Source: a virus
Taxonomy: Duplodnaviria > Caudoviricetes
Reading direction: 5' to 3' (one strand)
IMG/VR virus record: IMGVR_UViG_3300017909_004705
Length of the DNA stretch: 64,000 nucleotides
This document shows, piece by piece, positions 1 through 64,000 of this stretch. The translations under genes were made by a program, and so were the position numbers. The notes beneath the pieces were generated by a model, which saw nothing but the letters and a program-made list of their open reading frames with translations, made no database searches and was not told where the DNA came from. The number at the start of each line of letters is the position of its first letter. Position 1 is the stretch's first letter.

Positions 1-162
1 CACCAAGGGTCTTCTATGGGAGAAAACCTTTCTTATACAGGCACCGAAAAGTCCCAATATCAGAGAAAACACAACATTAAACCGGGTACAGACGAGTGGT
101 TCCAGTTATGGTTCTCAAGACCAAAACTCACTGGTGAAAACCCAATGCCTAAAAACAAATAA
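1..162 (+). CDS. 3' end of conserved phage hypothetical protein (partial)
   Basis: Open frame 1 from the window edge, ...RKHNIKPGTDEWFQLWFSRPKLTGENPMPKNK*, ending at TAA 160-162. Confidence 0.6.
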   Translation, partial: HQGSSMGENLSYTGTEKSQYQRKHNIKPGTDEWFQLWFSRPKLTGENPMPKNK

Positions 163-165
163 ATA
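160..165 (+). promoter_or_regulatory. T4-like late promoter core TAAATA
   Basis: ATAAATAC lies 8 nt before ATG 174; the same box recurs before other genes of this cluster. Confidence 0.55.
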
Positions 166-173
166 CTCGCAAT

Positions 174-908
174 ATGCGAGCCATTGAATTCACAGAAACA
201 AAATGCCCTCGAACAAGAGCAAAAGAATGTTCTTGTAGCAAGGTAAAAAGCATCACAGAAGCGGAACAGACCACTGTGGCACAGTGTATGCTTGAGCATT
301 CAGACACTGTGAAAGGCACTATACTGCTCATACAGGCCCCAGGAACACCAACTCTCATAAAAGGAACCATAACAGGATTAGAACCTGGCCTACACGGCTT
401 CCACATACATGAGTTCGGTGACATGAGTGAAGGCTGTAAGTCAATGGGCGGACACTACAACCCAGATGGTGTTGACCATGGTGACATTGAAAAGGGACAT
501 GTGGGTGATCTAGGAAACGTTTTAGCAGACGAATCCGGCGTAGCGAAATTTAGTATCACAGCGAAACGTGTTGATCTACTTGGTGAACGTTCTGTGATAG
601 GAAGAGGTCTAGTAATACACGCTGACGAGGACGATCTTGGCAAAGGTGGAGATGCTGAAAGTCTTAAAACAGGCAACGCCGGTGATAGATTGGCCTGTGG
701 TGTCATTGTTGCTAGGTCTGAAGAGATAGCAGAGGCGCATGGCGGTAAGCACACAACCAGTGGAAGAAGCATGACCAAGGGTGAAATGAATAAAAGAGAG
801 AAGATTGTCAAAGGTATGAAAAAAGACAAGGCAGGTTTCAAAAAGAGATATGGCAAAGACGCAGAAGCGGTGATGTACGCCACAGCAACTAAACAGGCGA
901 TGAAATAA
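174..908 (+). CDS. sodC: Cu/Zn superoxide dismutase with N-terminal MRAIEFTE leader and C-terminal basic module
   Basis: HGFHIHE, GGHYNP, HG..HVGDLGN, HADEDDLG and GNAGDRLACG motifs are intact. C-terminal KREKIVKGMKK..RYGKDAEAVMYATATK module. Confidence 0.92.
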   Translation: MRAIEFTETKCPRTRAKECSCSKVKSITEAEQTTVAQCMLEHSDTVKGTILLIQAPGTPTLIKGTITGLEPGLHGFHIHEFGDMSEGCKSMGGHYNPDGVDHGDIEKGHVGDLGNVLADESGVAKFSITAKRVDLLGERSVIGRGLVIHADEDDLGKGGDAESLKTGNAGDRLACGVIVARSEEIAEAHGGKHTTSGRSMTKGEMNKREKIVKGMKKDKAGFKKRYGKDAEAVMYATATKQAMK

Positions 909-1816: not shown

Positions 1817-2052
1817 AAATAAGAGAAATACTTGCCACAAAGTACGTACATCCTGATGTTGACAAAATACTTAAAAAATATGAAAAGAGAGCAAAGGGTA
1901 GAGCAAGAATGGGATATCATTCGATGATGGCATATCCTTACAGGGTAGAAGGTAAAAAATGGAGCAGGAAGTATAAAAAATCAATCAATTGTGCAAATCC
2001 AAAAGGCTTCTCACAAAAGGCCCACTGTGCAGGTAGGAAGAAAAAGAAATGA
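1813..2052 (+). CDS. Small basic putative internal head protein
   Basis: MKIREIL N-terminus; C-terminal WSRKYKKSINCANPKGFSQKAHCAGRKKKK; ATGA overlaps with neighbours. Confidence 0.7.
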   Translation: MKIREILATKYVHPDVDKILKKYEKRAKGRARMGYHSMMAYPYRVEGKKWSRKYKKSINCANPKGFSQKAHCAGRKKKK

Positions 2053-2744: not shown

Positions 2745-2754
2745 TTACTTCTAT

Positions 2755-3880: not shown

Positions 3881-4041
3881 TGGATACACTAGTACTTAAA
3901 AAAGAATGGATAGTCAAATGCCTCAACTGTGGCAATGACGCACATGAAGGCATTTTATATAGGACAGAAAAGGATTTTGACGGCAGAGAGTACAAAATAG
4001 AGGTGTGCAGGCAGTCAAGGCACGAAGGCGAAACAGTATAA
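3880..4041 (+). CDS. Small putative metal-binding protein (53 aa, not in ORF track)
   Basis: MDTLVLKKEWIVKCLNCGNDAHEG...IEVCRQSRHEGETV*; coupled to the previous stop (TAATG). Confidence 0.55.
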   Translation: MDTLVLKKEWIVKCLNCGNDAHEGILYRTEKDFDGREYKIEVCRQSRHEGETV

Positions 4042-4044: not shown

Positions 4045-4049
4045 TTGAT

Positions 4050-9833: not shown

Positions 9834-10111
9834 TGGTCAACTTACTCAAAGAATTTTGGGTAACAAGTTACAAAACAGACAAACTTGCTTTTTATCTCGA
9901 AGTATTTTCGGTAGCGGTAACAATAGCAGGTTCATGGCTGTTGACCTTTACCTCTCCAGGCCCGGACATGAAAATGGTGTTCCCACTATATCTACTCGGA
10001 TCAAGCACACTAGCGTGGGCGTCATTCCGCAGAAGAATAATTTGGACTTGCGTATTGGCGTCATGGTTTACTATAATGAATGTGATAGGAAATTTTAGAG
10101 TATTTTTATGA
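9833..10111 (+). CDS. Small 3-TM membrane protein
   Basis: Three hydrophobic segments. Confidence 0.6.
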   Translation: MVNLLKEFWVTSYKTDKLAFYLEVFSVAVTIAGSWLLTFTSPGPDMKMVFPLYLLGSSTLAWASFRRRIIWTCVLASWFTIMNVIGNFRVFL

Positions 10112-12771
10112 GTTACATAGATGCACTATACAAAAAAGACGAGGATAAAATCTACGTTGTAGAACGTGATCCAAAGAAGGGTCGAGTGTTCGTAGAGTAC
10201 GACGCAAGATACGTTTTTTATTATCCAGACGCAAGAGGCAAACACAGGTCGATGACTGGAGAACCTTTGCAAAGGGTAATTTGTCAGACAAACAAGGAAT
10301 TCATTAAGGAGCAGAGGATTAGGTCCAACAAGCAACTTTATGAACAAGATATCAATCCGGTGTTCAGATGCTTAGAAGAAAACTATTTGGGCAAAGAGAC
10401 GCCCAAATTGAACACTATGTTTTTTGATATCGAGGTTGACTTCGATCCAGATCGAGGTTATTCCACAACAGATGATCCGTTCATGCCCATAACTGCCATA
10501 AGTTGTTACATGAGTTGGACGGATCAACTGGTGACACTTGCTGTGCCTCCAAAAACAATTAGCATGAAGGACGCACAAGAGCTCACTAGAAGATTTGAAA
10601 ATACCATGTTGTTCGAAAAAGAAAAAGACATGCTTGATGCGTTCCTACAACTTGTTGAAGATGCTGATATATTATCAGGTTGGAACTCCGAAGGGTATGA
10701 TATACCATACACTGTGGGTAGGATACAAAAAGTATTAAGTTCAGATGATACGAGACGTTTGTGTTTCTGGGGAGAAAAACCAAAGAGAAGGGTGTTCGAA
10801 AAATATGGCAGAGAACAATTGAGTTTTGATCTTGTAGGCAGGGTGCATCTCGATCTGCTAGAACTATACAGGAAGTACACATATGAAGAACGACACAGTT
10901 TCAGACTTGATGCTATAGGTGAACACGAACTAGGCGAGAAGAAAACAATTTATGAAGGATCATTAGATAATCTTTATAAAAATGACTTTGGATTGTTCAT
11001 AGAATATAACAGACAAGATACTGCACTGCTGGCCAAACTTGAAAAGAAGTTGAAGTTCATAGAACTTGCGAACGAGATTGCACACCAAAACACTGTGTTG
11101 CTACAAACAACAATGGGTGCGGTTGCTGTAACTGAGCAGGCCATTGTCAATGAAGCACACAGGCGTGGTATGATTGTTCCAGGCAGAAGATATAAAAAAG
11201 ATGGTGAAGAGAATCAACCGGCGGCGGGTGCCTATGTGGCAACTCCTATAAAAGGCATACATGATTGGGTTGGTTCAATTGACATCAACTCTCTGTATCC
11301 AAGTGTAATTAGAGCGTTAAACATGGGACCTGAAACAATAGTTGGGCAGATAAGACCTGTCATAACATCAGCAGAGATCAACAGGGCCAAACACGCAAAG
11401 AAGTCTTTCGCGGCGGCATGGGATAGCCAGTTTGGAAGTTGGGAATATCAGGCCGTTATGAACAAGGAAAAAGGAACAGAGATCATAGTGGACTGGGAGG
11501 ACAAAACCAGTGTGCGTATGAGTGCGGCACAACTTTATGATATAGTTTTTGAAGGCAACAACAAATGGATGTTGAGTGCTAACGGCACAATATTCACATA
11601 CGAGTATGAAGCAATTATTCCAGGATTACTGAAACGTTGGTATGCTGAAAGACAGGAAATGCAACGTAAGATGCATGAGTGTGGTGATAACGAAATTGAA
11701 AGAGAATACTGGGATAAGAGACAACTTGTTAAGAAAATTAATTTGAACAGTTTGTACGGTGCTATTTTAAATCCAGGTTGCAGATTTTTTGACATAAGGA
11801 TTGGACAGTCTGTGACATTGTCAGGAAGGTGCATAACGAAACACATGGCAAGTAAAGTAAATGAAATAGTTGCAGGCAAATATGACCATAAAGGTGAGAG
11901 CGTTGTTTATGGAGACACTGACTCAGTTTACTTTTCTGCATATAAAACTTTGAAAAAAGAAATTGACCAAGGTGTTATACCATGGACAAAAGACTCAGTG
12001 GTGGCCTTGTATGACAAAATATCTGACGAGGTCAATGGCTCATTCAAGGCATTTATGACAAAAGCATTCCATTGTCCAAGCACCAGAGGTGAAGTGATTG
12101 CCGCGGGTAGAGAGCTTGTAGGATCTAAAGGTCTGTTTATTACAAAGAAAAGATATGCACTGCTCTACTATGACAAAGAAGGTGAGAGGACTGACACGGC
12201 GGGCAAAGAAGGAAAAATGAAAGCAATGGGACTTGATTTGAAAAGGTCTGACACTCCTGTATTCGTACAGGACTTCTTGAGTGATCTTCTTTATATGGTA
12301 TTGACCGGTAAGAACGAAACAGAAGTGTTAGAAAAGATCAGCGAATTTCGAGCAGAATTCAAAGCAAGGCCAGGTTGGGAAAAAGGATCTCCCAAGAGAG
12401 CAAACAACATGACCAAGTACACAGCGGCCGAGGAAGCGAAAGGCAAGGCAAACATGCCGGGACATGTGAGGGCCAGCATGAACTGGAATAGGTGTAGAGA
12501 AATGTATGGAGACAAATATTCGTTGCCTATCACTGATGGTGCCAAAGTTATTGTGTGCAAGTTGAAGAACAATCCACTAGGCTATACAAGCATCGCATAT
12601 CCTGTAGACGAAATGCGTATTCCAGAATGGTTCAAAGAACTGCCATTCGACGGTGACGCTATGGAAAGCACTATCCTAGACCAAAAGATTGACAACCTCA
12701 TAGGTGTGCTAGGTTGGGACGTTCAAAGCACAGAGACCACAAACACATTTAACAAACTATTTGACTTTTAA
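10108..12771 (+). CDS. polB: Family B DNA polymerase (gp43-like)
   Basis: Exonuclease motifs FFDIEV, GWNSEGYD and YNRQD; polymerase motifs DINSLYPS, KINLNSLYG, YGDTDS and KKRY. Confidence 0.97.
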   Translation: MSYIDALYKKDEDKIYVVERDPKKGRVFVEYDARYVFYYPDARGKHRSMTGEPLQRVICQTNKEFIKEQRIRSNKQLYEQDINPVFRCLEENYLGKETPKLNTMFFDIEVDFDPDRGYSTTDDPFMPITAISCYMSWTDQLVTLAVPPKTISMKDAQELTRRFENTMLFEKEKDMLDAFLQLVEDADILSGWNSEGYDIPYTVGRIQKVLSSDDTRRLCFWGEKPKRRVFEKYGREQLSFDLVGRVHLDLLELYRKYTYEERHSFRLDAIGEHELGEKKTIYEGSLDNLYKNDFGLFIEYNRQDTALLAKLEKKLKFIELANEIAHQNTVLLQTTMGAVAVTEQAIVNEAHRRGMIVPGRRYKKDGEENQPAAGAYVATPIKGIHDWVGSIDINSLYPSVIRALNMGPETIVGQIRPVITSAEINRAKHAKKSFAAAWDSQFGSWEYQAVMNKEKGTEIIVDWEDKTSVRMSAAQLYDIVFEGNNKWMLSANGTIFTYEYEAIIPGLLKRWYAERQEMQRKMHECGDNEIEREYWDKRQLVKKINLNSLYGAILNPGCRFFDIRIGQSVTLSGRCITKHMASKVNEIVAGKYDHKGESVVYGDTDSVYFSAYKTLKKEIDQGVIPWTKDSVVALYDKISDEVNGSFKAFMTKAFHCPSTRGEVIAAGRELVGSKGLFITKKRYALLYYDKEGERTDTAGKEGKMKAMGLDLKRSDTPVFVQDFLSDLLYMVLTGKNETEVLEKISEFRAEFKARPGWEKGSPKRANNMTKYTAAEEAKGKANMPGHVRASMNWNRCREMYGDKYSLPITDGAKVIVCKLKNNPLGYTSIAYPVDEMRIPEWFKELPFDGDAMESTILDQKIDNLIGVLGWDVQSTETTNTFNKLFDF

Positions 12772-13893: not shown

Positions 13894-14631
13894 ATGATAG
13901 ACATCTTAAAAGACATCGTTAAACATACGCATGGACTGGGATTCTTGGATCTTGTTAAGATCACTGGCGACGACAAAGAGACTGTCATCGATTCAATGGC
14001 CGAAGACAGATCTGTGATCCTGCAAGGGTCTTTCCACAAACCACAAGCGGAAATGAATGGTACGTTTGGTATGCCACAGATGGGCAAACTAGACATACAC
14101 TTGAAATGTCCGGAGTACAAGGAAAAGGCAAACATAACAGTGTTGTCCGGTGAGAGAAACGGCGCAACAGTTCCAACAGGAATCCATTTTGAGAATGAAA
14201 AGGGTGACTTCAAGAACGACTACAGGTTTATGAATGCTGAGATTATCAACGAGAAACTTAAGACTGTGAAGTTCAAGGGAGTTAAGTGGGACGTTGAGAT
14301 CGAACCAACTGTGGCAAGTGTGCAGAGATTCAATTTCCAAGCAACTGCAAACACAGAACACAATTCATTCGTTGTGAGGACAGAAGACGGAAACTTGATT
14401 TTCACTTTTGGTGATCAAGCATCGCATGGTGGTGAGTTTACATTTGCAACTGACGTTAAGGGCACACTTAACAAAGGTTGGAGTTGGCCTGTAGGACAGG
14501 TGTTACAAATACTTAAACTTTCAGACTCGGCAAAGGTCATGTTGCACTTCTCTAACGAAGGTGCCATGATGGTCAGCGTTGACTCAGGCTTAGGCAAGTA
14601 TCAATACATCATACCAGCACAGGCGCAATAA
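13894..14631 (+). CDS. Probable DNA polymerase sliding clamp (gp45-like)
   Basis: 245 aa with alternating alpha/beta pattern and a YQYIIPAQ C-terminus, close to PolB. Confidence 0.55.
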   Translation: MIDILKDIVKHTHGLGFLDLVKITGDDKETVIDSMAEDRSVILQGSFHKPQAEMNGTFGMPQMGKLDIHLKCPEYKEKANITVLSGERNGATVPTGIHFENEKGDFKNDYRFMNAEIINEKLKTVKFKGVKWDVEIEPTVASVQRFNFQATANTEHNSFVVRTEDGNLIFTFGDQASHGGEFTFATDVKGTLNKGWSWPVGQVLQILKLSDSAKVMLHFSNEGAMMVSVDSGLGKYQYIIPAQAQ

Positions 14632-16079
14632 TGACGACAGATAACGGTAGGCAAGAACATCTCGGAGACTTGAGCAGAGACTTTGCTGTATTCTTGCCTG
14701 CTATATCAAATTTCTATAATACATTCATCAGCAAACAAAGGGTAACAGAAGGCAAACATATTCCTGCTGAAAGGATACCCAAGACTTTTGAAAACGGCGT
14801 AGAATCGTTAAACTTTATTAATCCAGACAAAGGTATGTTCACCTATCCAACCGCACTTTATTCGGCAGGACATGCCTGCCTTGACATGGAGAAGGTGGCA
14901 GACAGAGATCATATGTTTGTCAACAGAGATAGAAAATTTACAACGATAGTTGGTGATTCCGGTGGATATCAGATTGGCAAGGGTGTCATAAAATTTGATT
15001 GGAAAGATTTTGAAGGAAACAAAGCCAACAAAGTTAGGTCAGATATTCTTAACTGGCTTGAACTTACAAGCGACTGGGCAATGACACTAGACGTGCCAAC
15101 ATGGGCGGCTGATGATCTTAACAGTCCTAAGACAGGTCTTAAAAGTTTCCAAGACACACTGGACGGCACAATATACAACAACAAGTTCTTTCAAAAAAAC
15201 AGGCTAGGACAAACAAAATTATTAAACGTGTTACAGGGGGATGACTGGAACACAGCACAGATATGGTATGATGCTGTGAAAGACTTCGAATTCGAAGGAT
15301 GGGCAATGGGTGGTATCAACATGTGTGACATGGAAGTGATGCTAAAACGCCTAATAATTATGAGAGATGAGAAGAAACTTGACGGCAAAGACTGGATGCA
15401 CGTACTAGGAACTTCGCAGATGGATTGGGCGTGTTATCTTACACAGGTACAAAGACAGGTAAGGAAACACATAAACGAAAACTTCACAATTAGTTTTGAC
15501 AGTGCATCAGCATTTTTATCGACTGCAAATGGCCTAGTGTACACACATAACTCGTTTGCTCCTGACAGATTCTCTTTTGTCATGGACAAGGCTCCAGATG
15601 ACAAAAGATTGAAGGATTCCAACATACAGTTTCCATTTGATAGTGGAGTTGGTAGAAGATTGACAATGGGTGATGTTTGCTTCTATGGCGAGAATGATCT
15701 AAACAAAAACGGAAAGATAGGGGCGACTAGTTGGGACAGTTTCAGTTATGTCCTAATGATGGCCCACAATGTTTACAATCAGATAAGAGCCATTCAAATT
15801 GCAAATGATCTAAATGACATAGAATCTATGAAACACAGACCAGAAGTGAAGCATTGGCGTAAAACAAAAGCATCGGACAAGACAGATGAGCCAAGTATAT
15901 ATGTTCCAAGAAATATTTTGTATTTCAACACATTTGTAGAAGAAGTTTTTACCAGTGAAAAACCAATGGATGTGATTGCAAGTGCATCGAGTTACTTGGC
16001 AGACATAAGAGGTAATAGATGGGCAAGAGCGACAGGTGGCGGTAAAGGCACCAATAACTTTAGTTCTTTATTTGAATAG
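14631..16079 (+). CDS. dpdA: TGT-fold DNA-guanine transglycosylase (DpdA/DpdA2-like)
   Basis: GDSGGYQ, MTLDVP, NVLQG, GWAMGG, HVLG and SFDSAS follow the TGT motif order; folE and queE are nearby. Confidence 0.75.
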   Translation: MTTDNGRQEHLGDLSRDFAVFLPAISNFYNTFISKQRVTEGKHIPAERIPKTFENGVESLNFINPDKGMFTYPTALYSAGHACLDMEKVADRDHMFVNRDRKFTTIVGDSGGYQIGKGVIKFDWKDFEGNKANKVRSDILNWLELTSDWAMTLDVPTWAADDLNSPKTGLKSFQDTLDGTIYNNKFFQKNRLGQTKLLNVLQGDDWNTAQIWYDAVKDFEFEGWAMGGINMCDMEVMLKRLIIMRDEKKLDGKDWMHVLGTSQMDWACYLTQVQRQVRKHINENFTISFDSASAFLSTANGLVYTHNSFAPDRFSFVMDKAPDDKRLKDSNIQFPFDSGVGRRLTMGDVCFYGENDLNKNGKIGATSWDSFSYVLMMAHNVYNQIRAIQIANDLNDIESMKHRPEVKHWRKTKASDKTDEPSIYVPRNILYFNTFVEEVFTSEKPMDVIASASSYLADIRGNRWARATGGGKGTNNFSSLFE

Positions 16080-20240: not shown

Positions 20241-21228
20241 GAACGTAACCAAAGCAGTATTGGTAACAGGTGGCGCAGGCTACGTTGGCTCACACACTTG
20301 TAAACTACTTGCCAAGAACGGGTACCTGCCGATCACAGTAGACAGGCACTTCAGAGAAGGCTTGGTGTCATACGGACCAACGCACAACTACACTCTGCCA
20401 CAGGAAGTAGACAGACTTGATGAAATCATAAAGCGATACAACATATCCAGTTGCATACATTTTGCAGGCAGTACCAGTGTTCCAGAAAGTGTTGAAAATC
20501 CTTCACTGTACTACAAAAACAATTTTGTGGTCACCCTATCTCTTTTAGACAAATTGATAAGTTGTGGAGTGAAAACATTTGTGTATAGTTCTAGTGCGGC
20601 CACATATGGTGATCCAGGTCTAAATAAATGCAAGGAAACAGATGTTCCAAGACCGATCAGTGCCTATGGAGGTAGTAAATTAATGATGGAGATGTTGTGC
20701 AAGGATTACATGACCGCGTACGGATTGTCAAGTGTTGGACTTAGGTATTTCAATGCCGCTGGCGCTGATCCTGAAGCGGAGATAGGTGAGTTGCGTGACA
20801 AGGAAACACACATAGTACCATTGGCAATAAATGCCGCCAGACAAGGCAATACGTTCAAGATATTCGGAGACAAGTATCCAACAGAGGACGGCACGTGTGT
20901 AAGAGATTATGTCCACGTGATGGATCTGGCAGACGCACACATAAAGGCACTAAATTACGCTTCAGAAAATTTGACCTCTGAAGTTTTTAATCTCGGTTCG
21001 GGTGCTCCTGCTTCAAACAAACAGTTGGTAGAAACAATTCAAAAATACACAGGTAAAATGAACATTGAAATATGGGGAAACAGGCCAGGAGACCCAGCGT
21101 ATCTCGTGGCAGACATAGAAAAAGCCAAGAAGATATTAAAGTGGGAGCCAACACAAAGTTCAATTGACAACGTGGTGGCAACTGCTGTAAAATGGTATAA
21201 CAAGACGCACAAAAAGGAAATACAATAA
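20197..21228 (+). CDS. galE: UDP-glucose 4-epimerase
   Basis: TGGAGYVGSH, SSSAATYG, YGGSK, LRYFNAAGA and DGTCVRDYVHV motifs. Confidence 0.92.
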   Translation: MDPTTGHQYQSPNIKNVTKAVLVTGGAGYVGSHTCKLLAKNGYLPITVDRHFREGLVSYGPTHNYTLPQEVDRLDEIIKRYNISSCIHFAGSTSVPESVENPSLYYKNNFVVTLSLLDKLISCGVKTFVYSSSAATYGDPGLNKCKETDVPRPISAYGGSKLMMEMLCKDYMTAYGLSSVGLRYFNAAGADPEAEIGELRDKETHIVPLAINAARQGNTFKIFGDKYPTEDGTCVRDYVHVMDLADAHIKALNYASENLTSEVFNLGSGAPASNKQLVETIQKYTGKMNIEIWGNRPGDPAYLVADIEKAKKILKWEPTQSSIDNVVATAVKWYNKTHKKEIQ

Positions 21229-21941
21229 TGAGTGAAGATATTTTGAAAGACAGTTGGGTTCCGGAAGGTCCTATCAGTAAAACTATCAAAGAAAGAATCA
21301 AAAGAGCTGGCAAGAGATTTCATTCTAACGATAACATCTCTGAGTTCATAGAAGATGGTGAAATGGATCTACTACAAGCAGAAGTACAAGAGAAACTACA
21401 AGGTGTGTTAGACAGTCTTGTTATTGACACAGAGAACGATCACAACACGCAGGAGACTGCAAAACGTGTTGCCAAGATGTATATCAGAGAAACATTTGGT
21501 GGCAGATTTAAGCCAGCACCGAGAGTTACAAGTTTCCCCAATATGGGGTACAAGAGCATGTACACTAGTGGTCCGATATCAATTAGATCAACGTGTGCCC
21601 ACCACTTCCAGAACATCGTAGGTAAGGCATGGGTTGGCATCATACCAAATGGAGAAGTTATTGGATTAAGCAAATTTAATAGGATTGTACATCACATAGT
21701 AGAAAGACCACAGATACAAGAAGAGATGACTACACAGATCGCAGATGAATTGAAGAAATATGCTAAGACTAACAACCTCGCAGTAGTGGTCAAAGCAGAG
21801 CATCACTGCATGACGCACAGAGGTGTAAGAGAACATGAGTCTGATATGACAACAGCAATCATGCTTGGAGCATTCAAAGAAGATCCTGCAACAAGAGACG
21901 AATTTTACAAAATTTGCATGAGCATGAAAGGACACGGATAA
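21228..21941 (+). CDS. folE: GTP cyclohydrolase I
   Basis: STCAHH, IGLSKFNR, RPQIQEEMT and AEHHCMTHRGV motifs. Confidence 0.95.
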   Translation: MSEDILKDSWVPEGPISKTIKERIKRAGKRFHSNDNISEFIEDGEMDLLQAEVQEKLQGVLDSLVIDTENDHNTQETAKRVAKMYIRETFGGRFKPAPRVTSFPNMGYKSMYTSGPISIRSTCAHHFQNIVGKAWVGIIPNGEVIGLSKFNRIVHHIVERPQIQEEMTTQIADELKKYAKTNNLAVVVKAEHHCMTHRGVREHESDMTTAIMLGAFKEDPATRDEFYKICMSMKGHG

Positions 21942-25613: not shown

Positions 25614-26012
25614 ATGGGAAACATAGCAGGAAAAATTTGGGGACAAACAGAACTAATAGAAGCAAATGGTTCTTGTGAATTCCATAGGATTGATTTTGTA
25701 AAAGGTGGCACGTGTTCAAAGCACAAACACGAATACAAATGGAATGGTTTCTACGTGATGTCAGGCGAGATGAAAATCCGTGTGTGGCAAAAGGACTACG
25801 ACCTAGTAGACGAGACCATACTTAAAGCCGGTGACTACACAGCCGTAAAGCCAGGACTATATCACTCATTTGAGGGATTGGAAGACGGTGTTGCGTTTGA
25901 ATTGTACTGGGCGGAATTCAGACACAACGATATACAAAGAGAAAGTGTTGGTCATTTACAAACAGGCAACGTGGTAAGGCTTGATAAGAAAAATGACAAA
26001 ACACGAAAATAA
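25614..26012 (+). CDS. Cupin-domain protein
   Basis: GKIWG..CSKHKHEYKWNGFYV.SG..KPGLYHSF..AFELYW. Confidence 0.8.
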   Translation: MGNIAGKIWGQTELIEANGSCEFHRIDFVKGGTCSKHKHEYKWNGFYVMSGEMKIRVWQKDYDLVDETILKAGDYTAVKPGLYHSFEGLEDGVAFELYWAEFRHNDIQRESVGHLQTGNVVRLDKKNDKTRK

Positions 26013-27024
26013 GATTCCAATAAAAGGTTACGCTACATTTGACCCGCTGAAACATTGCGTGATAGGATCAGCCTTCAAGCCAGACTGGTTCAAGCATCTG
26101 TCAATATATAAGAACGATAAGATAATGGATCCACTAAAGCGGATAGCCGAGGAAACTGAGGAAGACTTTGAGACCCTGGAAAAGATATTGAAAGACGCTG
26201 GTGTTAAGACATACAGGACTTTCCTAGACATCAACAAAGTTGGAGGACTTGATAATGTTTTTCAACCTCCCGTATGTCCGAGAGATCACTTCGCCACTAT
26301 TGGCGAAACGTTCTATGCGGTAGGGAATGGAGCGAAAGGGTATATCGACATTATCAAAAGCATAGACAAGAAGGACACCTATTATGGATTGCAATGGCAC
26401 GGCAAGTATGATAAAATGCAAGTGTCGACAGCACAGATAGTCAGGGTGGGAAAAGACCTTTGGTGGGACATTCCAAAGACAGTCCCTAAAGAAGTTTCTG
26501 ACACATTGATACAACGTTGGACAGATGAAGGTTTTAGAGTGCATACTAGTCACAGGGGATATCATAACGATGGAGTTTTCTGTGTGGTCAAGCCTGGCTG
26601 TATAATTTCACTGCATGACATACAGAATTACGATAAAGAGTTTCCAGGTTGGGACGTGCTGTATCTACCGGACAGATTGTGGCCCGAATCAAGTGCCTTT
26701 ACAAAGATGAAAAAAGAAGCAGGCGGACGATGGTGGCTGAAAGGTGAGGAACATAACGCACAATTGATTGAATTTGTAAACACTTGGCTAAAGGAATGGG
26801 TTGGATTTGTAGAAGAAACTGTGTTTGATGTAAACATGCTCTCCATAGATCAAAATACAGTGATCTGCAACAGTCATAACAAAGAAATAGCAGACTTTTT
26901 TAAAAAACATAAAGTTGAACCAATTATTTTTAATTTTAGGCACAGGTATTTTTGGGATGGCGGAATACACTGCATCACACAGGACCTGTACAGAGAAGGC
27001 ACACAGGAGGATTATTTTGGCTGA
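25993..27024 (+). CDS. Pentein-family (glycine amidinotransferase-like) protein
   Basis: FDPLKHCVIG, CPRD, HNDGVF, FDVNML and RYFWDGGIHCIT motifs. Confidence 0.8.
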   Translation: MTKHENKIPIKGYATFDPLKHCVIGSAFKPDWFKHLSIYKNDKIMDPLKRIAEETEEDFETLEKILKDAGVKTYRTFLDINKVGGLDNVFQPPVCPRDHFATIGETFYAVGNGAKGYIDIIKSIDKKDTYYGLQWHGKYDKMQVSTAQIVRVGKDLWWDIPKTVPKEVSDTLIQRWTDEGFRVHTSHRGYHNDGVFCVVKPGCIISLHDIQNYDKEFPGWDVLYLPDRLWPESSAFTKMKKEAGGRWWLKGEEHNAQLIEFVNTWLKEWVGFVEETVFDVNMLSIDQNTVICNSHNKEIADFFKKHKVEPIIFNFRHRYFWDGGIHCITQDLYREGTQEDYFG

Positions 27025-27493
27025 CATATATCACATTTGGGCTGATCATAAGCAGGGCGTTGACTCATATGACTTTGCAAACAAAATGCGAAAGTTTCTT
27101 GATGGTTTGGTTGAGATGGGCAGGATGAAAAACTATAGGCTTACCAGATCTAAACTTGGATTCAGATCCATGGACATGCCAGAATTCCACATCATGATGG
27201 AATTCAACAACATTCAACAACTAGACGACGCAATGACATCTATATTGCGAAATGAAAAGCACATAGATGAGACCCATGTGTCATTCAATCAGTTGGTAAA
27301 CAAAGACACAATCCAGCATTTTTTATACAGGGATTTTCCAGACGAGTTGACAGAAAACCAACCGCAAGTTAAAATACAAGAGCAAGTGAAAATAAAGATA
27401 GATCCGGAAATGGAAAAAAAAATGCGAGGTTCATACACAGTCGATGAAATAGTAAAATCAATGAAGGAGCAATACCCAGACATATGGAAGTAG
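27017..27493 (+). CDS. DUF6614-like protein
   Basis: TTG start after CAGGAGG; IYHIWAD..RLTRSKLGF..PEFHIMMEF...QLD.A..HFLYRDFPD. Confidence 0.6.
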   Translation: MADIYHIWADHKQGVDSYDFANKMRKFLDGLVEMGRMKNYRLTRSKLGFRSMDMPEFHIMMEFNNIQQLDDAMTSILRNEKHIDETHVSFNQLVNKDTIQHFLYRDFPDELTENQPQVKIQEQVKIKIDPEMEKKMRGSYTVDEIVKSMKEQYPDIWK

Positions 27494-28383
27494 AAAAAAA
27501 ATATTACTATAGTGAGATATTTCACAGCATACAAGGTGAGGGGCACTATACAGGAACACCAACTGCTTGGATAAGATTTTTCCTGTGTAATTTGCAGTGT
27601 AATGGATTTGGGCAGAAGGACCCAACTGACCCAAGCACGTATGAGTTGCCTTTTCAGGATTTCGATGTTGATAGTGTCAAACGTGTCGAGGACTTGCCTG
27701 TATGGGAAAAAGGTTGTGATAGTTCATACACATGGGCGAAGAAATTTAAGAAGTTGATGGGACACGAGACGCCGACTGTGTTGGCTGACAAGATTGTAAA
27801 TGTGCTGAAAACAGATACAAACATGAATGGTCTATTCCTCCATCCGAACTCAAGACAACACCAGCATCTGTGCTTTACAGGAGGTGAGCCGTTGATGATA
27901 ACAGGTCAGGCCGCAAGTGTAGGCATATACAGGGCATTAGAGAAGAAAGCAAACTTGCCTAGCTCTATGACATTTGAAACTAACGGCACACAAAAACTGA
28001 CTGAACCATTCAAGAAATGGGTAAAAGAGATTCCAGAAGAAATATTTTTCAGTGTTAGTCCAAAACTGTTCACAGTGTCTGGCGAGAAAACAGAAAAAGC
28101 GATCAAGCCAGCCAACGTAAGAGAGTATGCCGATTGTTCAGATAGAGGACAGTTGAAATTTGTGGTTGGTTCCTCAAGAAGAGAGTGGGAAGAACTTGAA
28201 AACACAGTTAGAAAATTTAGAGATGCAGGAGTGGATTGGCCTGTGTGGATAATGCCAACAGGAGCAAGAGAGGAGGAACAAACAGATACCGCTGGTAAAG
28301 TTGCAGAAGAGGCCTTTAAGAGAGGGTACAACGTTTCTGCAAGAGTACACGTGTATCTTTTTGGTAATGCAATCGGAACATAA
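27484..28383 (+). CDS. queE: 7-carboxy-7-deazaguanine synthase (radical SAM)
   Basis: YSEIFHSIQGEG, RFFLCNLQC...GCDS, TGGEP, FETNGT, SVSPKL and RVHVYLFGN motifs. Confidence 0.88.
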   Translation: MEVEKKYYYSEIFHSIQGEGHYTGTPTAWIRFFLCNLQCNGFGQKDPTDPSTYELPFQDFDVDSVKRVEDLPVWEKGCDSSYTWAKKFKKLMGHETPTVLADKIVNVLKTDTNMNGLFLHPNSRQHQHLCFTGGEPLMITGQAASVGIYRALEKKANLPSSMTFETNGTQKLTEPFKKWVKEIPEEIFFSVSPKLFTVSGEKTEKAIKPANVREYADCSDRGQLKFVVGSSRREWEELENTVRKFRDAGVDWPVWIMPTGAREEEQTDTAGKVAEEAFKRGYNVSARVHVYLFGNAIGT

Positions 28384-32387: not shown

Positions 32388-33491
32388 ATGCCAAGAGCAA
32401 AAAACAAAGAAGCCGCAGTAGGCTCACAAAACAGAACAGTTTCACCCAACGAGGCGAAATCCGCACTGACACATTGTATCAAATTACAAAGACCAATAAT
32501 GATGTGGGGTGCGCCAGGTATTGGTAAATCCGATATTGTTAAACAAATTGCAGACCAAGAAGGCAGAGAAGTAATTGATATTAGACTGCCTTTGTGGGAA
32601 CCAACAGATATCAAAGGTATTCCGTATTACAACTCAAAAGAAAACAACATGGTTTGGGCAAGTCCGGCAGAGTTGCCAACTGATCCAAAGTCTAATGCTA
32701 TTGTTTTCTTGGACGAGCTAAACTCGGCGGCGCCGGCAGTACAGGCGGCGGCATACCAACTTATTCTAAACAGAAGAGTAGGACAATATCACCTGCCAGA
32801 AGGCGTTTCAATTGTGGCGGCTGGTAATAGAGACAGTGACAAAGGTGTCACTTACAGGATGCCTGCTCCGTTGGCAAACAGATTTGTCCACATCGAATTG
32901 AGAGTGGACTTCGAAGACTGGCTACAGTGGGCTACAGACCAACACATACACGCAGATGTCGTTGGTTATTGCACATTCGCTAAACAAGATTTATACGATT
33001 TTGATCCTAGAGGTAGTTCTAGATCATTCGCAACTCCAAGATCATGGAGTTTCGTATCCCAACTTCTATCAGATGACCTGCCAGAAAGTACGCTCACTGA
33101 CCTCGTTGCAGGTTGCGTAGGAGAGGGCCTGGCCGTGAAGTTTATGAATCATCGTAAAATTAGCGGTCAGTTACCTAACCCATCTGATATATTGAGCGGC
33201 AAGGTGAAAGACCTTAAGAGCAAAGAGATATCGGCTATGTACTCTTTGACAGTTTCTTTGTGCTATGAATTACAACAGGCACACGAGAAGAAAGATAAAA
33301 CTTGGAATGAACAAGCGGACAGGTTCTTTAACTACATGATGGACAACTTCGAGACAGAGTTGGTTGTTATGGGTGCAAAGATTGCCTTGACAAACTACAA
33401 ACTTCCGTTCGATCCTAGCAAGTTAAAATCATTTGATAGGTTCCATAAGAAGTTTGGCAAGTATGTCATAACTGCTATGGAGTCTAAATAG
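32388..33491 (+). CDS. MoxR-like AAA+ ATPase
   Basis: Walker A GAPGIGKS, Walker B FLDELN, AAGNR and PLANRF. Confidence 0.9.
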   Translation: MPRAKNKEAAVGSQNRTVSPNEAKSALTHCIKLQRPIMMWGAPGIGKSDIVKQIADQEGREVIDIRLPLWEPTDIKGIPYYNSKENNMVWASPAELPTDPKSNAIVFLDELNSAAPAVQAAAYQLILNRRVGQYHLPEGVSIVAAGNRDSDKGVTYRMPAPLANRFVHIELRVDFEDWLQWATDQHIHADVVGYCTFAKQDLYDFDPRGSSRSFATPRSWSFVSQLLSDDLPESTLTDLVAGCVGEGLAVKFMNHRKISGQLPNPSDILSGKVKDLKSKEISAMYSLTVSLCYELQQAHEKKDKTWNEQADRFFNYMMDNFETELVVMGAKIALTNYKLPFDPSKLKSFDRFHKKFGKYVITAMESK

Positions 33492-44283: not shown

Positions 44284-44388
44284 TTATTTGTAAATGAATG
44301 GATCTTTCTTCTTAAGTTCTTTCACTCTTTTTCTATAGGCTATTTCTTGTTTGAATTTAAGCCAAAGATTTTTTATCCATTTAAACAT
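44284..44388 (-). CDS. 34-aa basic peptide (not in ORF track)
   Basis: MFKWIKNLWLKFKQEIAYRKRVKELKKKDPFIYK*; AAGGAGA RBS; paralog at 45045-45161. Confidence 0.65.
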   Translation of the reverse strand: MFKWIKNLWLKFKQEIAYRKRVKELKKKDPFIYK

Positions 44389-45058
44389 GATTTGTCTCCT
44401 TTCTAAAAACATATGTTGTTAATCCGCCGTTCCTCCAGTTCCATAATATTCCTGGATGACTGTCTACGAATTTATAATCCATAAACATCTTTTTTACATC
44501 TCTACTGTAAAAACTTAATTCGTAAGGATGTTGTTCCTGATCTATTTCTAGGGTTTGAGTAGCATAATCATTTGGCAATAACTTTTGCAACCTCTTGCCC
44601 CATGGATGATAAAGACCTATTATGAACATACCACCGTTGTGTAGCATGTTTTGTAACCTTGCTAAAGTCTGCATGTAATCAGGTATGTGATGCAACACGC
44701 CCTGGCATATGATTGTATCGAAACCATCATGTGTTTCAAACCTTGTAAGATCTTCTTTTATGAATTTAAGATTAGGCCTGTTCAGTTCTTCTTTTATTTT
44801 CACTGCATAATTTATACTATCTGCAAAATCTACTCCGGTAAAGTTTTTGGTAGGATAGGTTTGTGCAAGATAGTTCACCATGAAACCTGTGCCACAACCT
44901 GCGTCGAGGACAGTACGGCTATGCATTATACTGTTTGATATGAAAGCAATATAACGATTTTGCCCTGCATAGGTCTTAACAGACTGAGCAGTGTAAGGAC
45001 CTGGAAAAGGATGTTTATTATAAAAACCTTTTACCTGATCGCTTTTATTTGTATTCAT
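44381..45058 (-). CDS. Class I SAM methyltransferase
   Basis: VLDAGCGTG, GVDFA and CQGVLHHIP motifs. Confidence 0.85.
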   Translation of the reverse strand: MNTNKSDQVKGFYNKHPFPGPYTAQSVKTYAGQNRYIAFISNSIMHSRTVLDAGCGTGFMVNYLAQTYPTKNFTGVDFADSINYAVKIKEELNRPNLKFIKEDLTRFETHDGFDTIICQGVLHHIPDYMQTLARLQNMLHNGGMFIIGLYHPWGKRLQKLLPNDYATQTLEIDQEQHPYELSFYSRDVKKMFMDYKFVDSHPGILWNWRNGGLTTYVFRKETNHV

Positions 45059-61402: not shown

Positions 61403-61406
61403 GGGA

Positions 61407-62846
61407 TTAGCTCTCCCTTACGAACCAAAGATCCCCGTTTGAGCCTTGACCAGATGTAGGTGCTGAGGTCTCAACGTATCTGTTACCTGCTATGCTGTTG
61501 CTACCGTCGTCGGATATTGTAGAGCCACCCCATAATTTTAGTGATTTGGTTACCTGCCCTAGCGTTGTTACATCTGCACTTGTTGTTGACGATGAAGAAG
61601 TGATGTCAGATCCAACAGCGGCCAATGTCAATGTCGTGACTTTAAGGTTACCTGTTGACGAATCTGTTATCAGAGGTTTTGTGCCTTTGTTAGCATCACC
61701 GTCGTCTGTCGCGTCTAACAGTCTTAACACTTGCGAGTATGTTCCACCTGAACCTGCTGTCCAGTGGTTCTCAGATGCGTCCCAGAATATTCTTGCGTCA
61801 TCTGTGTCTGGAGTCTCAACTATGAATCCTGCATCAACGTCTCCACCACTGGAGTTGACCTTGATGAATGTGTCTGTGTGTTCTGATATGTTGGATGAAG
61901 TGTAACTGTATGCACCACTAACATTCAAATTTCCTGTGATTGTCACATCACCTGTGATGTCAACACCACCATCGGCACCTGTCAATGTCAAAGGTGTTTT
62001 TGTGCTACCACCATCGTTGACTGTGAATTTTAGATCCTTGTCCTGTGATGTCTGTGCAATAGTGACATCATTGCTCGAAACTGAAATTGTCAATTCTTGT
62101 GCGTCACCTACCACAACTCCTGTGTCATTGTCTACCGTCAATGACCCTGTTGTAGTGTCATTGGCATCCGCTCTCAGAAAGTTACCACCGGCTATGACCG
62201 TGGCTGAAGTGTTTGACGTGCCTGAAACATCTATGTTTGCCGCCTGTGTGTTGGTTCCTTCGAACACCGCACTCAAAGTCGAGTTCAGTGTGAAGCCTGC
62301 TTTGATCTCCGCAAATCCCGACTGTGACACACTTGGTGTGAAAGTTTCTTTGGAAAGTATCGCCACCCTAGTGTTGCCCACGTACATCGAAGATACGACC
62401 TTGTCTCCACCTGCACTAGCCAGTGTCTCGATCTTCCAACCTGACAGTGTCTGCCCTGCTGTGTATACTGGGCCAACCAGCACGAATGCTGATCCTGTGT
62501 ACACATACAGTTGGTCATCTGTTGAATTGTGCCAAAGATCTCCTGCTGATGCTGAAGTTGGTGCTGATGCCTGGGACTTCGCCGCACCCGTTGGTTTGAA
62601 TGCTGATCCGTCGTAAACTTTCAACTGTGCTGTGTTGGTGTCGAACCAAAGTTCACCCCTCAGAGGTGAAGTTGGAGCCGACGTGCTGGCCGCGTTTTCC
62701 AATAATTTTACTAAATTTTCGTTAAGGCCTTCACCAAAACCCGAGAAGCTCTTTCCAAACAACTGCAACGAAGTGGTGTTATCGACCGTTCCGTCCGTGA
62801 TTGTTGTTACTACTGTTCCGTCTGTTTTGTTAATTGTGTACGCCAT
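61407..62846 (-). CDS. Tail fibre/virion structural protein
   Basis: MAYTINKTDG..DGTVDNTT..GFGEGLNENLVKLLEN; GELWFD; GDLW; paralog of 56482-58107; TAAATA 6 nt upstream. Confidence 0.75.
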   Translation of the reverse strand: MAYTINKTDGTVVTTITDGTVDNTTSLQLFGKSFSGFGEGLNENLVKLLENAASTSAPTSPLRGELWFDTNTAQLKVYDGSAFKPTGAAKSQASAPTSASAGDLWHNSTDDQLYVYTGSAFVLVGPVYTAGQTLSGWKIETLASAGGDKVVSSMYVGNTRVAILSKETFTPSVSQSGFAEIKAGFTLNSTLSAVFEGTNTQAANIDVSGTSNTSATVIAGGNFLRADANDTTTGSLTVDNDTGVVVGDAQELTISVSSNDVTIAQTSQDKDLKFTVNDGGSTKTPLTLTGADGGVDITGDVTITGNLNVSGAYSYTSSNISEHTDTFIKVNSSGGDVDAGFIVETPDTDDARIFWDASENHWTAGSGGTYSQVLRLLDATDDGDANKGTKPLITDSSTGNLKVTTLTLAAVGSDITSSSSTTSADVTTLGQVTKSLKLWGGSTISDDGSNSIAGNRYVETSAPTSGQGSNGDLWFVRES

Positions 62847-62870
62847 TTCTTATATTTACCTCATCTTTTT

Positions 62871-64000
62871 TTAATTTAGAACCGTCTGACTTGTAAAATA
62901 AGTTTGTGTTTCAAAACTGAAAATTACAAACATGTGTTTGCCGTTAGTAGTTGAACCATCACCGACTGTAACAGTGGACTGGGTTACCCCATCTACCTGA
63001 AATACTATTTCCCTAATCGTTGCTGTCTGTGTAACTACTGTTAAGAATTTTATTGTTCCGTTTTGAATATTTGTAAAATTCAAGGTAACGTCAGCGTTTA
63101 CAAACACTTCGGCGTATCTTGAATTAGACATGTCTATAGTTTGATTAGTTGTAACTCCAGCACTAATTGTTCCTTTAGACTGAACTTCACCAATTATGCT
63201 GTCTGCTGTGAAATTTCCTTGAACTTGTAAATCATCGTTAATCGTCACAGCACTTGAATCTGTTGCACTTAATGACGTGCCTGTTATAGATAATCCGTCA
63301 AGCACAACCGCACCTGTTCCTGAACCTTTTAGCACAAGGTTGTCATTTGATCTACTTGCTACTATCTCATTATCATTTATCGTTACACCTTGGCTTTTAA
63401 TCTCTGTTGCATCTAATGTGTCAAAGAACGCTGTTGCGAATCTATTTCCGTCTGTACCTAAATTGTGTGTTGAATCTGCACTTGGCAATATGGCTTCTGA
63501 GTTTAATGTTCCTGTAAGAGTACCTCCAGTTAATAAAAGGTTGAGACTTGCTGAGCCTGTCACTGTCCCTGTAACATCTCCTGTTACGTCACCTGTTACA
63601 TCTCCTACCACGTTTCCTGTTATAGGTCCTGTGAATGCTGTTGCGTTTACTGTGCCTGACACATCCAGTTTTGTGGTCGGCGTTAATGTGCCTATCCCTA
63701 TCCTGGCCACCGATCCGTCCATTGTCATCAGCGTGGTTGTTGTACCGCCTGTGTTGACTTTGAAGGTGATATCTGAATCTGATATGATGTTTTGCATCAC
63801 TACACCACTGCTGTCAACAGTCAGTGAGAGATCGTTGTCAACTCCGACCTTGAGTCCGTTATCATTGAGAATTCCTAAAGTTCCTGTTGTGGTATCATTG
63901 GCGTTTGATCTGAGATAATTGGCCGCCGCAACTCCACCTAATGCATCTGCGTCTGTTGACGTGCCTGCAAATTTAAGATCTGATATTGACGTTGATAATG
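62871..64000 (-). CDS. Tail fibre/virion structural protein (5'-truncated by window edge)
   Basis: Frame stays open to the window end: KFAGTSTDADALGGVAAANYLRSNANDTTTG, which matches 56482-58107. Confidence 0.75.
   Translation of the reverse strand, partial: LSTSISDLKFAGTSTDADALGGVAAANYLRSNANDTTTGTLGILNDNGLKVGVDNDLSLTVDSSGVVMQNIISDSDITFKVNTGGTTTTLMTMDGSVARIGIGTLTPTTKLDVSGTVNATAFTGPITGNVVGDVTGDVTGDVTGTVTGSASLNLLLTGGTLTGTLNSEAILPSADSTHNLGTDGNRFATAFFDTLDATEIKSQGVTINDNEIVASRSNDNLVLKGSGTGAVVLDGLSITGTSLSATDSSAVTINDDLQVQGNFTADSIIGEVQSKGTISAGVTTNQTIDMSNSRYAEVFVNADVTLNFTNIQNGTIKFLTVVTQTATIREIVFQVDGVTQSTVTVGDGSTTNGKHMFVIFSFETQTYFTSQTVLN
63557..63620 (-). repeat. 12-nt coding tandem repeat (G-D/N/T-V-T)
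   Basis: Encodes GNVVGDVTGDVTGDVTGTVTG. Confidence 0.6.

What the first reader, a model, noticed from the sequence alone, without database searches (positions are those of the whole stretch)
1..64000. Apparent strict avoidance of GCWGC forces rare Ala-Ala codon pairs
Seen: lone Ala codons are mostly GCA or GCT, yet every Ala-Ala pair I inspected (several dozen, both strands) reads GCGGC or GCCGC. Examples: TCGGCGGCGCCG and CAGGCGGCGGCA near 32724-32753, AAAGCGGCCGCA near 22691, TTCGCGGCGGCA near 11406. I noticed no GCAGC or GCTGC by eye, although this was not an exhaustive count. Known: GCWGC is the TseI/ApeKI-type restriction site. Inference: long-term selection from a host GCWGC-specific system that the phage's guanine modification does not block. 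This would be a usable host fingerprint.
Basis: partly seen in the sequence, partly recalled or inferred. Interest (0 to 1): 0.7.

Follow-up and report, generated by a model that had tools for sequence, protein, structure and literature searches.

The report
GCWGC-free marine giant phage genome
This uncultured marine giant phage and its whole clade have removed the five-letter restriction-enzyme target GCWGC from their DNA by silent codon swaps, a very clean but not new kind of phage defence trick, and neither the enzyme that drives it nor the host has been identified.

Summary
GCAGC/GCTGC occurs 0 times in 64 kb. Markov models expect 59-77 and synonymous codon shuffles expect 80 +/- 6.5. It is the only absent pentamer. 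All three reading frames avoid it by synonymous choice: all 90 Ala-Ala pairs start GCG or GCC, and there is no loss of Ala-Ala at protein level.

The purge covers the clade. Across 1.83 Mb of related environmental contigs (75-90% nucleotide identity) there are 4 sites against about 1730 expected, so selection is still acting. Cultured relatives (Phosso, Atu_ph07, a Vibrio phage) show observed/expected near 1. One sister lineage keeps GCWGC but has no CATG.

AGCT and GCGC are also depleted, variably. Their survivors are almost all G-flanked (GAGCT, GGCGC), which matches the known DpdA target contexts GA and GGC. A protein with a predicted TGT/DpdA-like fold is encoded at 14631-16079. G-flanked GCWGC is not spared.

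Best reading (about 0.6): restriction-site avoidance driven by a host GCWGC-cutting enzyme that the putative guanine modification does not block. A phage-borne nuclease or a GCNGC-specific enzyme is not excluded. No host could be assigned.

This scan has already reported the same purge in other marine giant phages (33 findings in at least 27 genomes). It is a new member of a known kind.

The parts
1..64000 (.). Whole window free of GCAGC/GCTGC on both strands. The 108 GCSGC copies include the 90 recoded Ala-Ala pairs.
   Evidence: 0 observed against 59-80 expected; GCSGC 104 in coding sequence against 53 in synonymous shuffles.
32724..32753 (+).
   Evidence: positions; Pfam AAA_3/AAA_5.
10108..12771 (+). 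Family B DNA polymerase gene, used as the marker to collect relatives and as the test bed for ongoing selection.
   Evidence: PF00136, PF03104; in 80 orthologues, Ala before GCN is GCG 350, GCC 54, GCA 1, while 39 of 41 control Ala columns mix A/T-ending and G/C-ending codons.
13894..14631 (+). Probable sliding clamp, assigned by synteny only.
   Evidence: the syntenic gene after PolB in Sinorhizobium phage Phosso is annotated as a sliding clamp. No Pfam hit here.
14631..16079 (+). 482-aa protein with a predicted tRNA-guanine-transglycosylase (DpdA-like) fold. It is the candidate enzyme for context-specific guanine exchange in phage DNA. Its C-terminal tail resembles that of the DNA polymerase.
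   Evidence: AF2, pLDDT 69, pTM 0.77. (top 50 Foldseek PDB hits all TGT, E about 2e-9, TM by target 0.50-0.56). (tails TNNFSSLFE vs TNTFNKLFDF; GDSGGYQ at 108-114, SFDSAS at 288-293). No Pfam, PDB-sequence or NCBIfam hit.
21228..21941 (+). GTP cyclohydrolase I (FolE), the first step of 7-deazaguanine synthesis.
   Evidence: PF01227, E 3e-47.
27484..28383 (+). Weak QueE-like radical SAM protein. Only the N-terminal motif matches and the scores are far below the curated cut-offs.
   Evidence: TIGR03963/TIGR04322, E 2e-10 to 2e-9, 37-41 bits against cut-offs of 200-260.

Best explanation
This is restriction-site avoidance. The phage belongs to an abundant, uncultured marine jumbo-phage clade with a genome of roughly 350 kb that is distantly related to Atu_ph07 and Phosso. 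Its hosts probably carry a restriction activity that cuts GCWGC, either TseI/ApeKI-type or the type IIS BbvI-type (GCAGC). Any phage that gains a site is cut on entry, so every new GCAGC or GCTGC is removed by purifying selection. Because each of the three reading frames has a synonymous way out (GCR/GCY choice for Ala-Ala, CAA for Gln, other Leu/Ser/Cys codons), the purge is complete and costs no amino-acid change. It inflates GCSGC as a side effect. Shown: the absence, its statistical strength, the silent recoding, persistence across diverged relatives, and its lineage boundary. Inferred: that the agent is a restriction enzyme, and that it belongs to the host. Also inferred: the phage partly shields other sites (AGCT, GCGC) by modifying G in GA/GGC contexts through a DpdA-like enzyme, and the GCWGC-cutting activity is insensitive to that shield, which would explain why GCWGC alone is purged whatever its flanks.
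For: Absence and statistics. All frames recoded silently. Clade-wide: 80 PolB-centred loci have 2 sites against 535 expected. Whole contigs of 139 kb and 100 kb have 0 against 128 and 0 against 116, although they are only 75-77% nucleotide-identical to the window. A second genome region (912 kb) has 1 against 887. The total is 4 against about 1730 in 1.83 Mb. Ongoing selection: Ala-Ala columns only toggle between GCG and GCC, while neighbouring Ala columns mix all four codons, and 1389 window positions are one substitution from a site. Restriction-type pattern: 4- and 6-bp palindromes are more depleted than non-palindromes (p 0.005 to 1e-6). AGCT, GCGC, CTGCAG and GTGCAC are also depleted. Lineage-specific repertoires: a sister lineage has GCWGC 48 against 54 but CATG 0 against 49, Atu_ph07 lacks CCWGG, and AGCT observed/expected ranges from 0.0 to 0.85 between sublineages. 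Method controls near 1: Phosso 104 against 118, Atu_ph07 51 against 47, Vibrio phage 93 against 85. GCWGC is a known type II site with m5C methylases (PMC3643589, PMC8557920), and complete elimination of orthodox type II sites is documented for about a tenth of phage genomes (PMC6286503). No DNA methylase or restriction-like gene was found in about 150 kb of the phage. Shield contrast.
Against: The host is unknown, so no cognate R-M system has been seen. The purge is uniform over a cosmopolitan clade (PolB down to about 68-70% identity, GC 35-45%). R-M systems are usually strain-variable, and AGCT/GCGC avoidance in the same phages does vary. That uniformity would also fit an agent carried by the phage itself. 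Only about 40% of one related genome could be screened, and type II nucleases are hard to recognise by sequence. SMRT-based marine and freshwater methylome surveys found GCWGC methylation only in Chloroflexi (m4C, orphan; PMC6329791, PMC8919816). From my own knowledge, m5C-type systems are detected poorly by that method. Every GCSGC contains GGC on one strand, so a GCNGC-specific enzyme plus a GGC shield would give the same sequence pattern.
Confidence: 0.6

Rival explanations
1. Self-avoidance of a phage-borne nuclease. The clade carries its own GCWGC-cutting endonuclease without a methylase, uses it to shred host or competitor DNA for nucleotides, and stays immune by having no sites.
For: The purge is uniform and complete across the whole clade, while AGCT/GCGC avoidance varies. 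That is what a core phage gene would produce. No phage DNA methylase was found, as this model requires. One sister lineage has lost the purge entirely, as loss of a gene would predict. Earlier scan notes propose the same logic for AGCT and CCGG in other viruses (unchecked leads).
Against: No restriction-like protein was detected among 81 window ORFs or 66 ORFs of the related contig with PADLOC, or among the roughly 50 larger window ORFs scanned with Pfam. The sister lineage has instead purged CATG, which looks like a change of host R-M regime. I know of no published case of a tailed phage protecting itself from its own nuclease by site loss alone.
Confidence: 0.15
2. The host enzyme recognises GCNGC (Fnu4HI/Bsp6I type). 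GCSGC copies are intrinsically protected because they always contain GGC on one strand, which the phage's DpdA-like enzyme would modify. Only the GCWGC half of the sites therefore has to be removed.
For: CAjan DpdA modifies G in GA and GGC, and enzymes whose sites contain these are blocked (PMC7544227). A protein with a predicted TGT-like fold is encoded here. AGCT and GCGC survive only as GAGCT and GGCGC. GCSGC is used freely, at 108 copies.
Against: GGCWGC also contains GGC yet is never spared: 37.6 are expected in the window and 0 are seen. The shield would therefore have to work only from inside the site. No modification has been measured.
Confidence: 0.12
3. Modification-dependent restriction. 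The phage DNA carries modified cytosines, and a BisI-family type IV enzyme that prefers G(m5C)WGC selects against the site.
For: Some BisI homologues cut modified GCWGC better than GCSGC (PMC4926085).
Against: Most of the family cut GCNGC, and GCSGC is enriched here, not avoided. No cytosine-modifying enzyme was seen in the window.
Confidence: 0.03
4. Not selection on DNA cutting at all, but an assembly or base-calling artefact, a mutational bias, or a translational codon-pair bias.
For: None found.
Against: The same absence is seen in over 160 independently assembled contigs from many samples, while other phages and a sister lineage from similar data have normal counts. All three frames and both strands are affected, which codon-pair bias cannot do. 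Neighbouring one-off words are abundant.
Confidence: 0.02

Closest known systems
Restriction-site (short palindrome) avoidance in non-temperate dsDNA phages (survey: Rusinov et al. 2018, PMC6286503)
   Same: A known type II recognition sequence is eliminated from a lytic-type dsDNA phage genome by silent substitutions. Other palindromes are depleted, and related phages purge different sites.
   Different: The host and its R-M system are unknown. The purge is complete over a roughly 350-kb genome type and uniform over a whole cosmopolitan clade. In the same genomes it is flank-independent for GCWGC but flank-conditional for AGCT and GCGC.
TseI / ApeKI (G^CWGC, type IIP) and, from my own knowledge, BbvI (GCAGC, type IIS) restriction systems with m5C methylases (PMC3643589, PMC8557920)
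   Same: Their recognition set is exactly the word pair that is missing.
   Different: The characterised examples come from thermophiles and Bacillus relatives, not marine plankton. No homologue was sought or found in a candidate host.
DpdA-mediated 7-deazaguanine DNA modification with GA and GGC target motifs (phage CAjan, PMC7544227; phage iggy, GA only, PMC10484667)
   Same: A protein with a predicted TGT fold plus FolE and a QueE-like gene are present. Surviving AGCT/GCGC sites lie in GA/GGC contexts, the contexts that protect CAjan DNA from restriction.
   Different: No sequence-level match to TGT/DpdA models. QueC and QueD were not found. The modification has not been measured. GGCWGC is not protected.
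Agrobacterium phage Atu_ph07 and Sinorhizobium phage Phosso (cultured jumbo phages)
   Same: Closest cultured relatives by PolB (46-50% identity). In Phosso the replication and FolE/QueE-like block lies in the same gene order.
   Different: They do not avoid GCWGC (51 against 47 and 104 against 118).

Membership tests
Restriction-site avoidance | The site is far below expectation under composition-, Markov- and codon-preserving models. | tested here: met
   0 against 59-77 and against 79.6 +/- 6.5.
Restriction-site avoidance | The avoided word is a recognition sequence of known type II enzymes. | tested here: met
   TseI and ApeKI recognise GCWGC (PMC3643589; PMC8557920).
Restriction-site avoidance | Avoidance acts on DNA, not on protein or translation (all frames, both strands, silent). 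| tested here: met
Restriction-site avoidance | The host encodes the cognate restriction enzyme. | not testable with these tools
   Host unknown.
Restriction-site avoidance | Related phages under other regimes purge other sites. | tested here: met
   L101/L105 lineage: GCWGC 48 against 54, CATG 0 against 49. Atu_ph07 CCWGG 1 against 36. HTVC008M and P-SSM2 purge other sets.
Phage-borne methylase-less restriction nuclease | A restriction-type nuclease gene in the phage, without a cognate methylase. | tested here: inconclusive
   No REase or DNA MTase hit in 81 + 66 ORFs with PADLOC, nor PF00145/PF01555 in five contigs. Only about 40% of a genome was covered, and such nucleases are often unrecognisable by sequence.
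TGT/DpdA guanine transglycosylase (protein 14631-16079) | TGT-type fold. | tested here: met
   Top 50 Foldseek PDB hits are all TGT, E about 2e-9, probability 1.00. The model is of moderate quality (pLDDT 69, pTM 0.77).
TGT/DpdA guanine transglycosylase (protein 14631-16079) | Match to the family's sequence models. | tested here: not met
   No Pfam hit. PF01702 is absent from five related contigs. No NCBIfam hit and no PDB sequence or profile hit.
TGT/DpdA guanine transglycosylase (protein 14631-16079) | Catalytic aspartates in conserved motifs. | tested here: inconclusive
   Invariant GDSGGYQ and FDS motifs resemble the TGT DSGG(F/Y)Q and FDC motifs as I recall them. No residue-level structural alignment was made.
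TGT/DpdA guanine transglycosylase (protein 14631-16079) | Accompanying preQ0 pathway (FolE, QueD, QueE, QueC). | tested here: inconclusive
   FolE is clear, QueE-like is weak, and QueC and QueD were not found in the window.
BisI-type modification-dependent restriction as the agent | GCNGC in general should be selected against. | tested here: not met
   GCSGC has 108 copies and is enriched.

The most novel reading that the evidence does not exclude
The GCWGC purge is imposed by one conserved agent that ignores the phage's guanine shield. That agent is either a core m5C-type GCWGC restriction system of a dominant marine host group that SMRT methylome surveys have missed, or a methylase-less GCWGC nuclease carried by the phage clade itself. 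Meanwhile the flank-conditional survival of AGCT and GCGC reads out the target motif (GA/GGC) of a highly divergent, clamp-docking DpdA-like enzyme. If so, the modification motif and the restriction repertoire met by an uncultured giant phage can both be read from sequence alone.
Probability: 0.25. Interest if true: 0.6.

Novelty: new member of a known kind. Interest (0 to 1): 0.4.

Why it matters
Site avoidance is one of the few host-interaction signals that can be read directly from an uncultured phage genome. Here it is unusually clean: 4 sites against about 1730 expected across a cosmopolitan clade. It also has a sharp phylogenetic boundary, so it can serve as a marker for sorting giant-phage lineages by the restriction regime they face, and later for matching them to hosts once 5mC-aware methylomes or single-cell data exist. 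Within one genome, GCWGC is purged unconditionally while AGCT and GCGC are purged only outside GA/GGC contexts. That contrast gives a concrete, testable prediction about a 7-deazaguanine-type DNA modification and its limits. The phenomenon itself is long known, and this scan has met the same purge repeatedly in other marine giant phages.

Tried and rejected
- The whole genome of the window is not held.
I fetched the contigs and counted in scripts instead.
- The 324-kb NCBI contig of a relative (GCA_902565185.1) is not held for whole-record work.
- A megablast of 8 kb of the window against cultured phages found nothing.
- The PolB scan of 185,579 species genomes found no relative, so no MAG or prophage link to a host.
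- The Atlas look-up of the thioredoxin reductase gave only 'Pseudomonadota/Bacteroidota', which is no use for host assignment.
- Searches for C5 methylase, N4/N6 methylase and TGT Pfam families in five related contigs were all empty.
- The single PADLOC 'MTase_II/mad2' hit (44384-45058, minus strand) is a 225-aa small-molecule-type SAM methyltransferase, not a DNA methylase.
It does not avoid GCWGC (65 against 59), and neither does Prochlorococcus phage P-SSM2 (65 against 59). Neither host group is therefore supported.
- The GCWGC-free 6.5 kb inside a non-avoiding lineage could have been a recent import from an avoider. PolB half-gene identities gave no support, so the test is inconclusive.
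- Protein-level loss of Ala-Ala, reported for another phage in the scan, does not occur here (90 against 91.6).
Full report
**What the window is**

The window is 64 kb with 40.8% G+C. Genes run on the + strand up to about 36.7 kb and on the - strand after that. It encodes:
- a family B DNA polymerase;
- Cu/Zn superoxide dismutase and an FMN reductase-like protein;
- peroxiredoxin, FolE, a GMP-reductase-like protein, a phosphoribosyltransferase and a xanthine/uracil permease;
- a MoxR-VWA pair;
- a long sugar and radical-SAM operon.

No cultured phage is close at the nucleotide level. The nearest by PolB are Sinorhizobium phage Phosso (50%) and Agrobacterium phage Atu_ph07 (46%), followed by Rak2/121Q-like jumbo phages. 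Phosso has the same gene order around PolB. Hundreds of environmental viral contigs carry PolB at 93-99% identity. CheckV rates a syntenic 139-kb contig as 39% complete, which implies a genome of roughly 350 kb.

**Checking the observation**

- GCAGC and GCTGC are both absent, while GCGGC+GCCGC number 108.
- Expectations are 59-77 from Markov orders 0 to 3, and 79.6 +/- 6.5 (minimum 61) from 1000 shuffles that keep every protein sequence and each gene's codon usage.
- It is the only absent pentamer of 512.
- GCA is half of all Ala codons, yet all 90 Ala-Ala pairs start with GCG or GCC.
- Gln between ...G and C... is always CAA (27 of 27). Leu there is never CTG (0 of 43). Ser/Cys after NGC is never AGC or TGC (0 of 34).
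- Ala-Ala dipeptides are not depleted (90 against 91.6), and 1389 positions lie one substitution from a site.
- The GCSGC excess (104 against 53) is the by-product of the recoding.

**Is it a property of the lineage?**

| Data set | GCWGC observed / expected |
|---|---|
| 80 PolB-centred loci, 608 kb | 2 / 535 |
| 139-kb contig (75-77% nt identity to the window) | 0 / 128 |
| 100-kb contig (75-77% nt identity to the window) | 0 / 116 |
| 80 loci around a gene about 75 kb beyond the window, 912 kb | 1 / 887 |
| All clade sequence, 1.83 Mb | 4 / about 1730 |

In 80 PolB genes (73 distinct, 78-90% identical to the window), 39 of 41 ordinary Ala columns mix A/T-ending and G/C-ending codons. The five Ala-Ala columns only switch between GCG and GCC, with GCA or GCT in 1 of 405 cells. 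This shows purifying selection at the DNA level that is still acting, not inheritance from one site-free ancestor.

More distant lineages also lack the site: PolB 82% (0 / 18), 73% (0 / 19), 70% (0 / 7), and one at 68% (1 / 9).

**Controls and boundary**

| Phage or lineage | GCWGC observed / expected | Other purges |
|---|---|---|
| Phosso | 104 / 118 | none seen |
| Atu_ph07 | 51 / 47 | CCWGG 1 / 36 |
| Vibrio phage 2.275.O | 93 / 85 | none seen |
| Pelagibacter phage HTVC008M | 65 / 59 | GATC, CGCG, GGCC |
| Prochlorococcus phage P-SSM2 | 65 / 59 | GCGC, CGCG, CCGG |
| Sister lineage, PolB 68% (L101/L102/L105) | 25-48 / 40-54 | CATG 0 / 49 |

**Other avoided words and the flank rule**

Observed / expected counts in the window are AGCT 22 / 99, GCGC 24 / 70, CTGCAG 2 / 13 and GTGCAC 1 / 13. 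Palindromes as a class are more depleted than non-palindromes. AGCT avoidance varies between sublineages, with observed/expected from 0.0 to 0.85, whereas GCWGC is uniformly absent.

Following leads from earlier notes of this scan, I tested the flanks of the surviving sites:
- Surviving GCGC sites are G-flanked (GGCGC or GCGCC) in 24 of 24 (window), 38 of 38 and 72 of 87 cases (the two long contigs).
- Surviving AGCT sites are G-flanked (GAGCT or AGCTC) in 18 of 22, 13 of 13 and 44 of 44 cases.
- In the second data set, 79 of 80 survivors are G-flanked in strong AGCT avoiders, against 118 of 310 in weak ones.
- GGCGC itself is at observed/expected near 1.

The rescuing contexts, GA and GGC, are the two motifs modified by the DpdA of phage CAjan, where sites containing them resist restriction (PMC7544227).

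GCWGC is different. Synonymous shuffles expect 37.6 G-flanked copies and 4.0 GGCWGCC in the window, and none exists. None of the four exceptions in the clade is GG-flanked. Earlier notes report GGCWGCC survivors in other phages, so this clade differs from them.

**Is there a guanine-modifying enzyme?**

Pfam TGT is absent from five related contigs. However, the conserved 482-aa protein next to the presumed clamp gene has a predicted TGT-type fold:
- The AlphaFold model has pLDDT 69 and pTM 0.77.
- The top 50 Foldseek hits in the PDB are all TGT, with E about 2e-9.
- It carries invariant GDSGGYQ and FDS motifs.
- It ends in a tail (TNNFSSLFE) like that of the polymerase (TNTFNKLFDF).

It has no sequence-level match to TGT or DpdA models. 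FolE is clear, a QueE-like protein is weak, and QueC and QueD were not seen. A context-specific 7-deazaguanine-type modification is therefore plausible but unmeasured.

**Who does the cutting?**

No DNA methylase or restriction-like gene was found among 81 window ORFs or 66 ORFs of the related contig with PADLOC, nor with Pfam on the larger window ORFs, nor in family scans of five related contigs. This covers only about 40% of a genome.

Several things favour host restriction, which is also the well-documented cause of such purges (PMC6286503):
- different lineages purge different sites;
- the sister lineage has switched to CATG;
- palindromes are generally depleted.

The clade-wide uniformity of the GCWGC purge is the main point in favour of an agent carried by the phage. 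A GCNGC-specific host enzyme with GCSGC shielded by GGC modification would give the same sequence pattern.

Published SMRT methylomes found GCWGC methylation only in Chloroflexi (m4C, orphan). The characterised ApeKI methylase is m5C, a mark that, from my own knowledge, SMRT sequencing detects poorly.

**Verdict**

The phenomenon is known, and this scan has already reported the same purge in other marine giant phages (33 findings in at least 27 genomes). What this case adds:
- clade-wide statistics;
- a phylogenetic boundary;
- the contrast between unconditional (GCWGC) and GA/GGC-conditional (AGCT, GCGC) purging;
- a candidate DpdA-like enzyme.

No host could be assigned.

**Limits**

Gene calls were ORF-based. 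Related loci are homologous and therefore not independent samples. The structural assignment rests on one medium-confidence model. The TGT motif comparison rests on my memory of the family.

Noticed in passing
window 14631-16079 (+): A conserved 482-aa protein with no family hit has a predicted tRNA-guanine-transglycosylase fold. It ends in a tail (TNNFSSLFE) like the DNA polymerase tail (TNTFNKLFDF) and sits next to the presumed sliding-clamp gene. It may be a clamp-docking DpdA-like DNA transglycosylase.
   Followed up: partly
window-wide; also L081-L092 and L106-L185: Surviving AGCT and GCGC sites are almost all G-flanked (GAGCT/AGCTC, GGCGC/GCGCC). GGCGC is at observed/expected near 1, while the other flanks are at 0.1-0.2. 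The rescuing contexts equal the GA and GGC motifs of CAjan DpdA.
   Followed up: yes
L101, L102, L105 (sister lineage, PolB 68% identical): This lineage keeps GCWGC at normal frequency but contains no CATG at all (0 against 45-49 expected per locus). That points to a different restriction regime, possibly a different host.
   Followed up: partly
L102:7711-14191: Inside that non-avoiding lineage, a 6.5-kb stretch has no GCWGC (about 16 expected). It runs from the 3' half of PolB through the clamp and the TGT-fold gene to small ORFs. No identity jump to the sampled avoiders was found. It may be an old import from an avoiding relative.
   Followed up: partly
window 25981-27024 (+): The C-terminal 65 residues of this 347-aa protein match L-arginine:glycine amidinotransferases (PDB E 5e-7 to 6e-6). 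It lies in the FolE/QueE-like block and might tailor a deazapurine with an amidino group.
   Followed up: no
window-wide: Two non-palindromic words are also depleted: GCAAGC/GCTTGC (2 against 17) and CATCC/GGATG (89 against 134; I recall the latter as the FokI-type site). In the related contigs GCAAGC is 6 against 36 and 10 against 27.
   Followed up: no
L099 (Atu_ph07), L104 (HTVC008M), L186 (P-SSM2): Cultured phages show their own purges. Atu_ph07: CCWGG 1 against 36 and CATG 45 against 161. HTVC008M: GATC 24 against 137, CGCG 1 against 24, GGCC 10 against 36. P-SSM2: GCGC 0 against 15.5, CGCG 0 against 8, CCGG 0 against 14.5.
   Followed up: no
window 44384-45058 (-): A 225-aa class I SAM methyltransferase in the glycan/radical-SAM operon matches the PADLOC model 'mad2' (E 5e-18). 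By Pfam it is a generic small-molecule-type methyltransferase, not a DNA methylase.
   Followed up: yes
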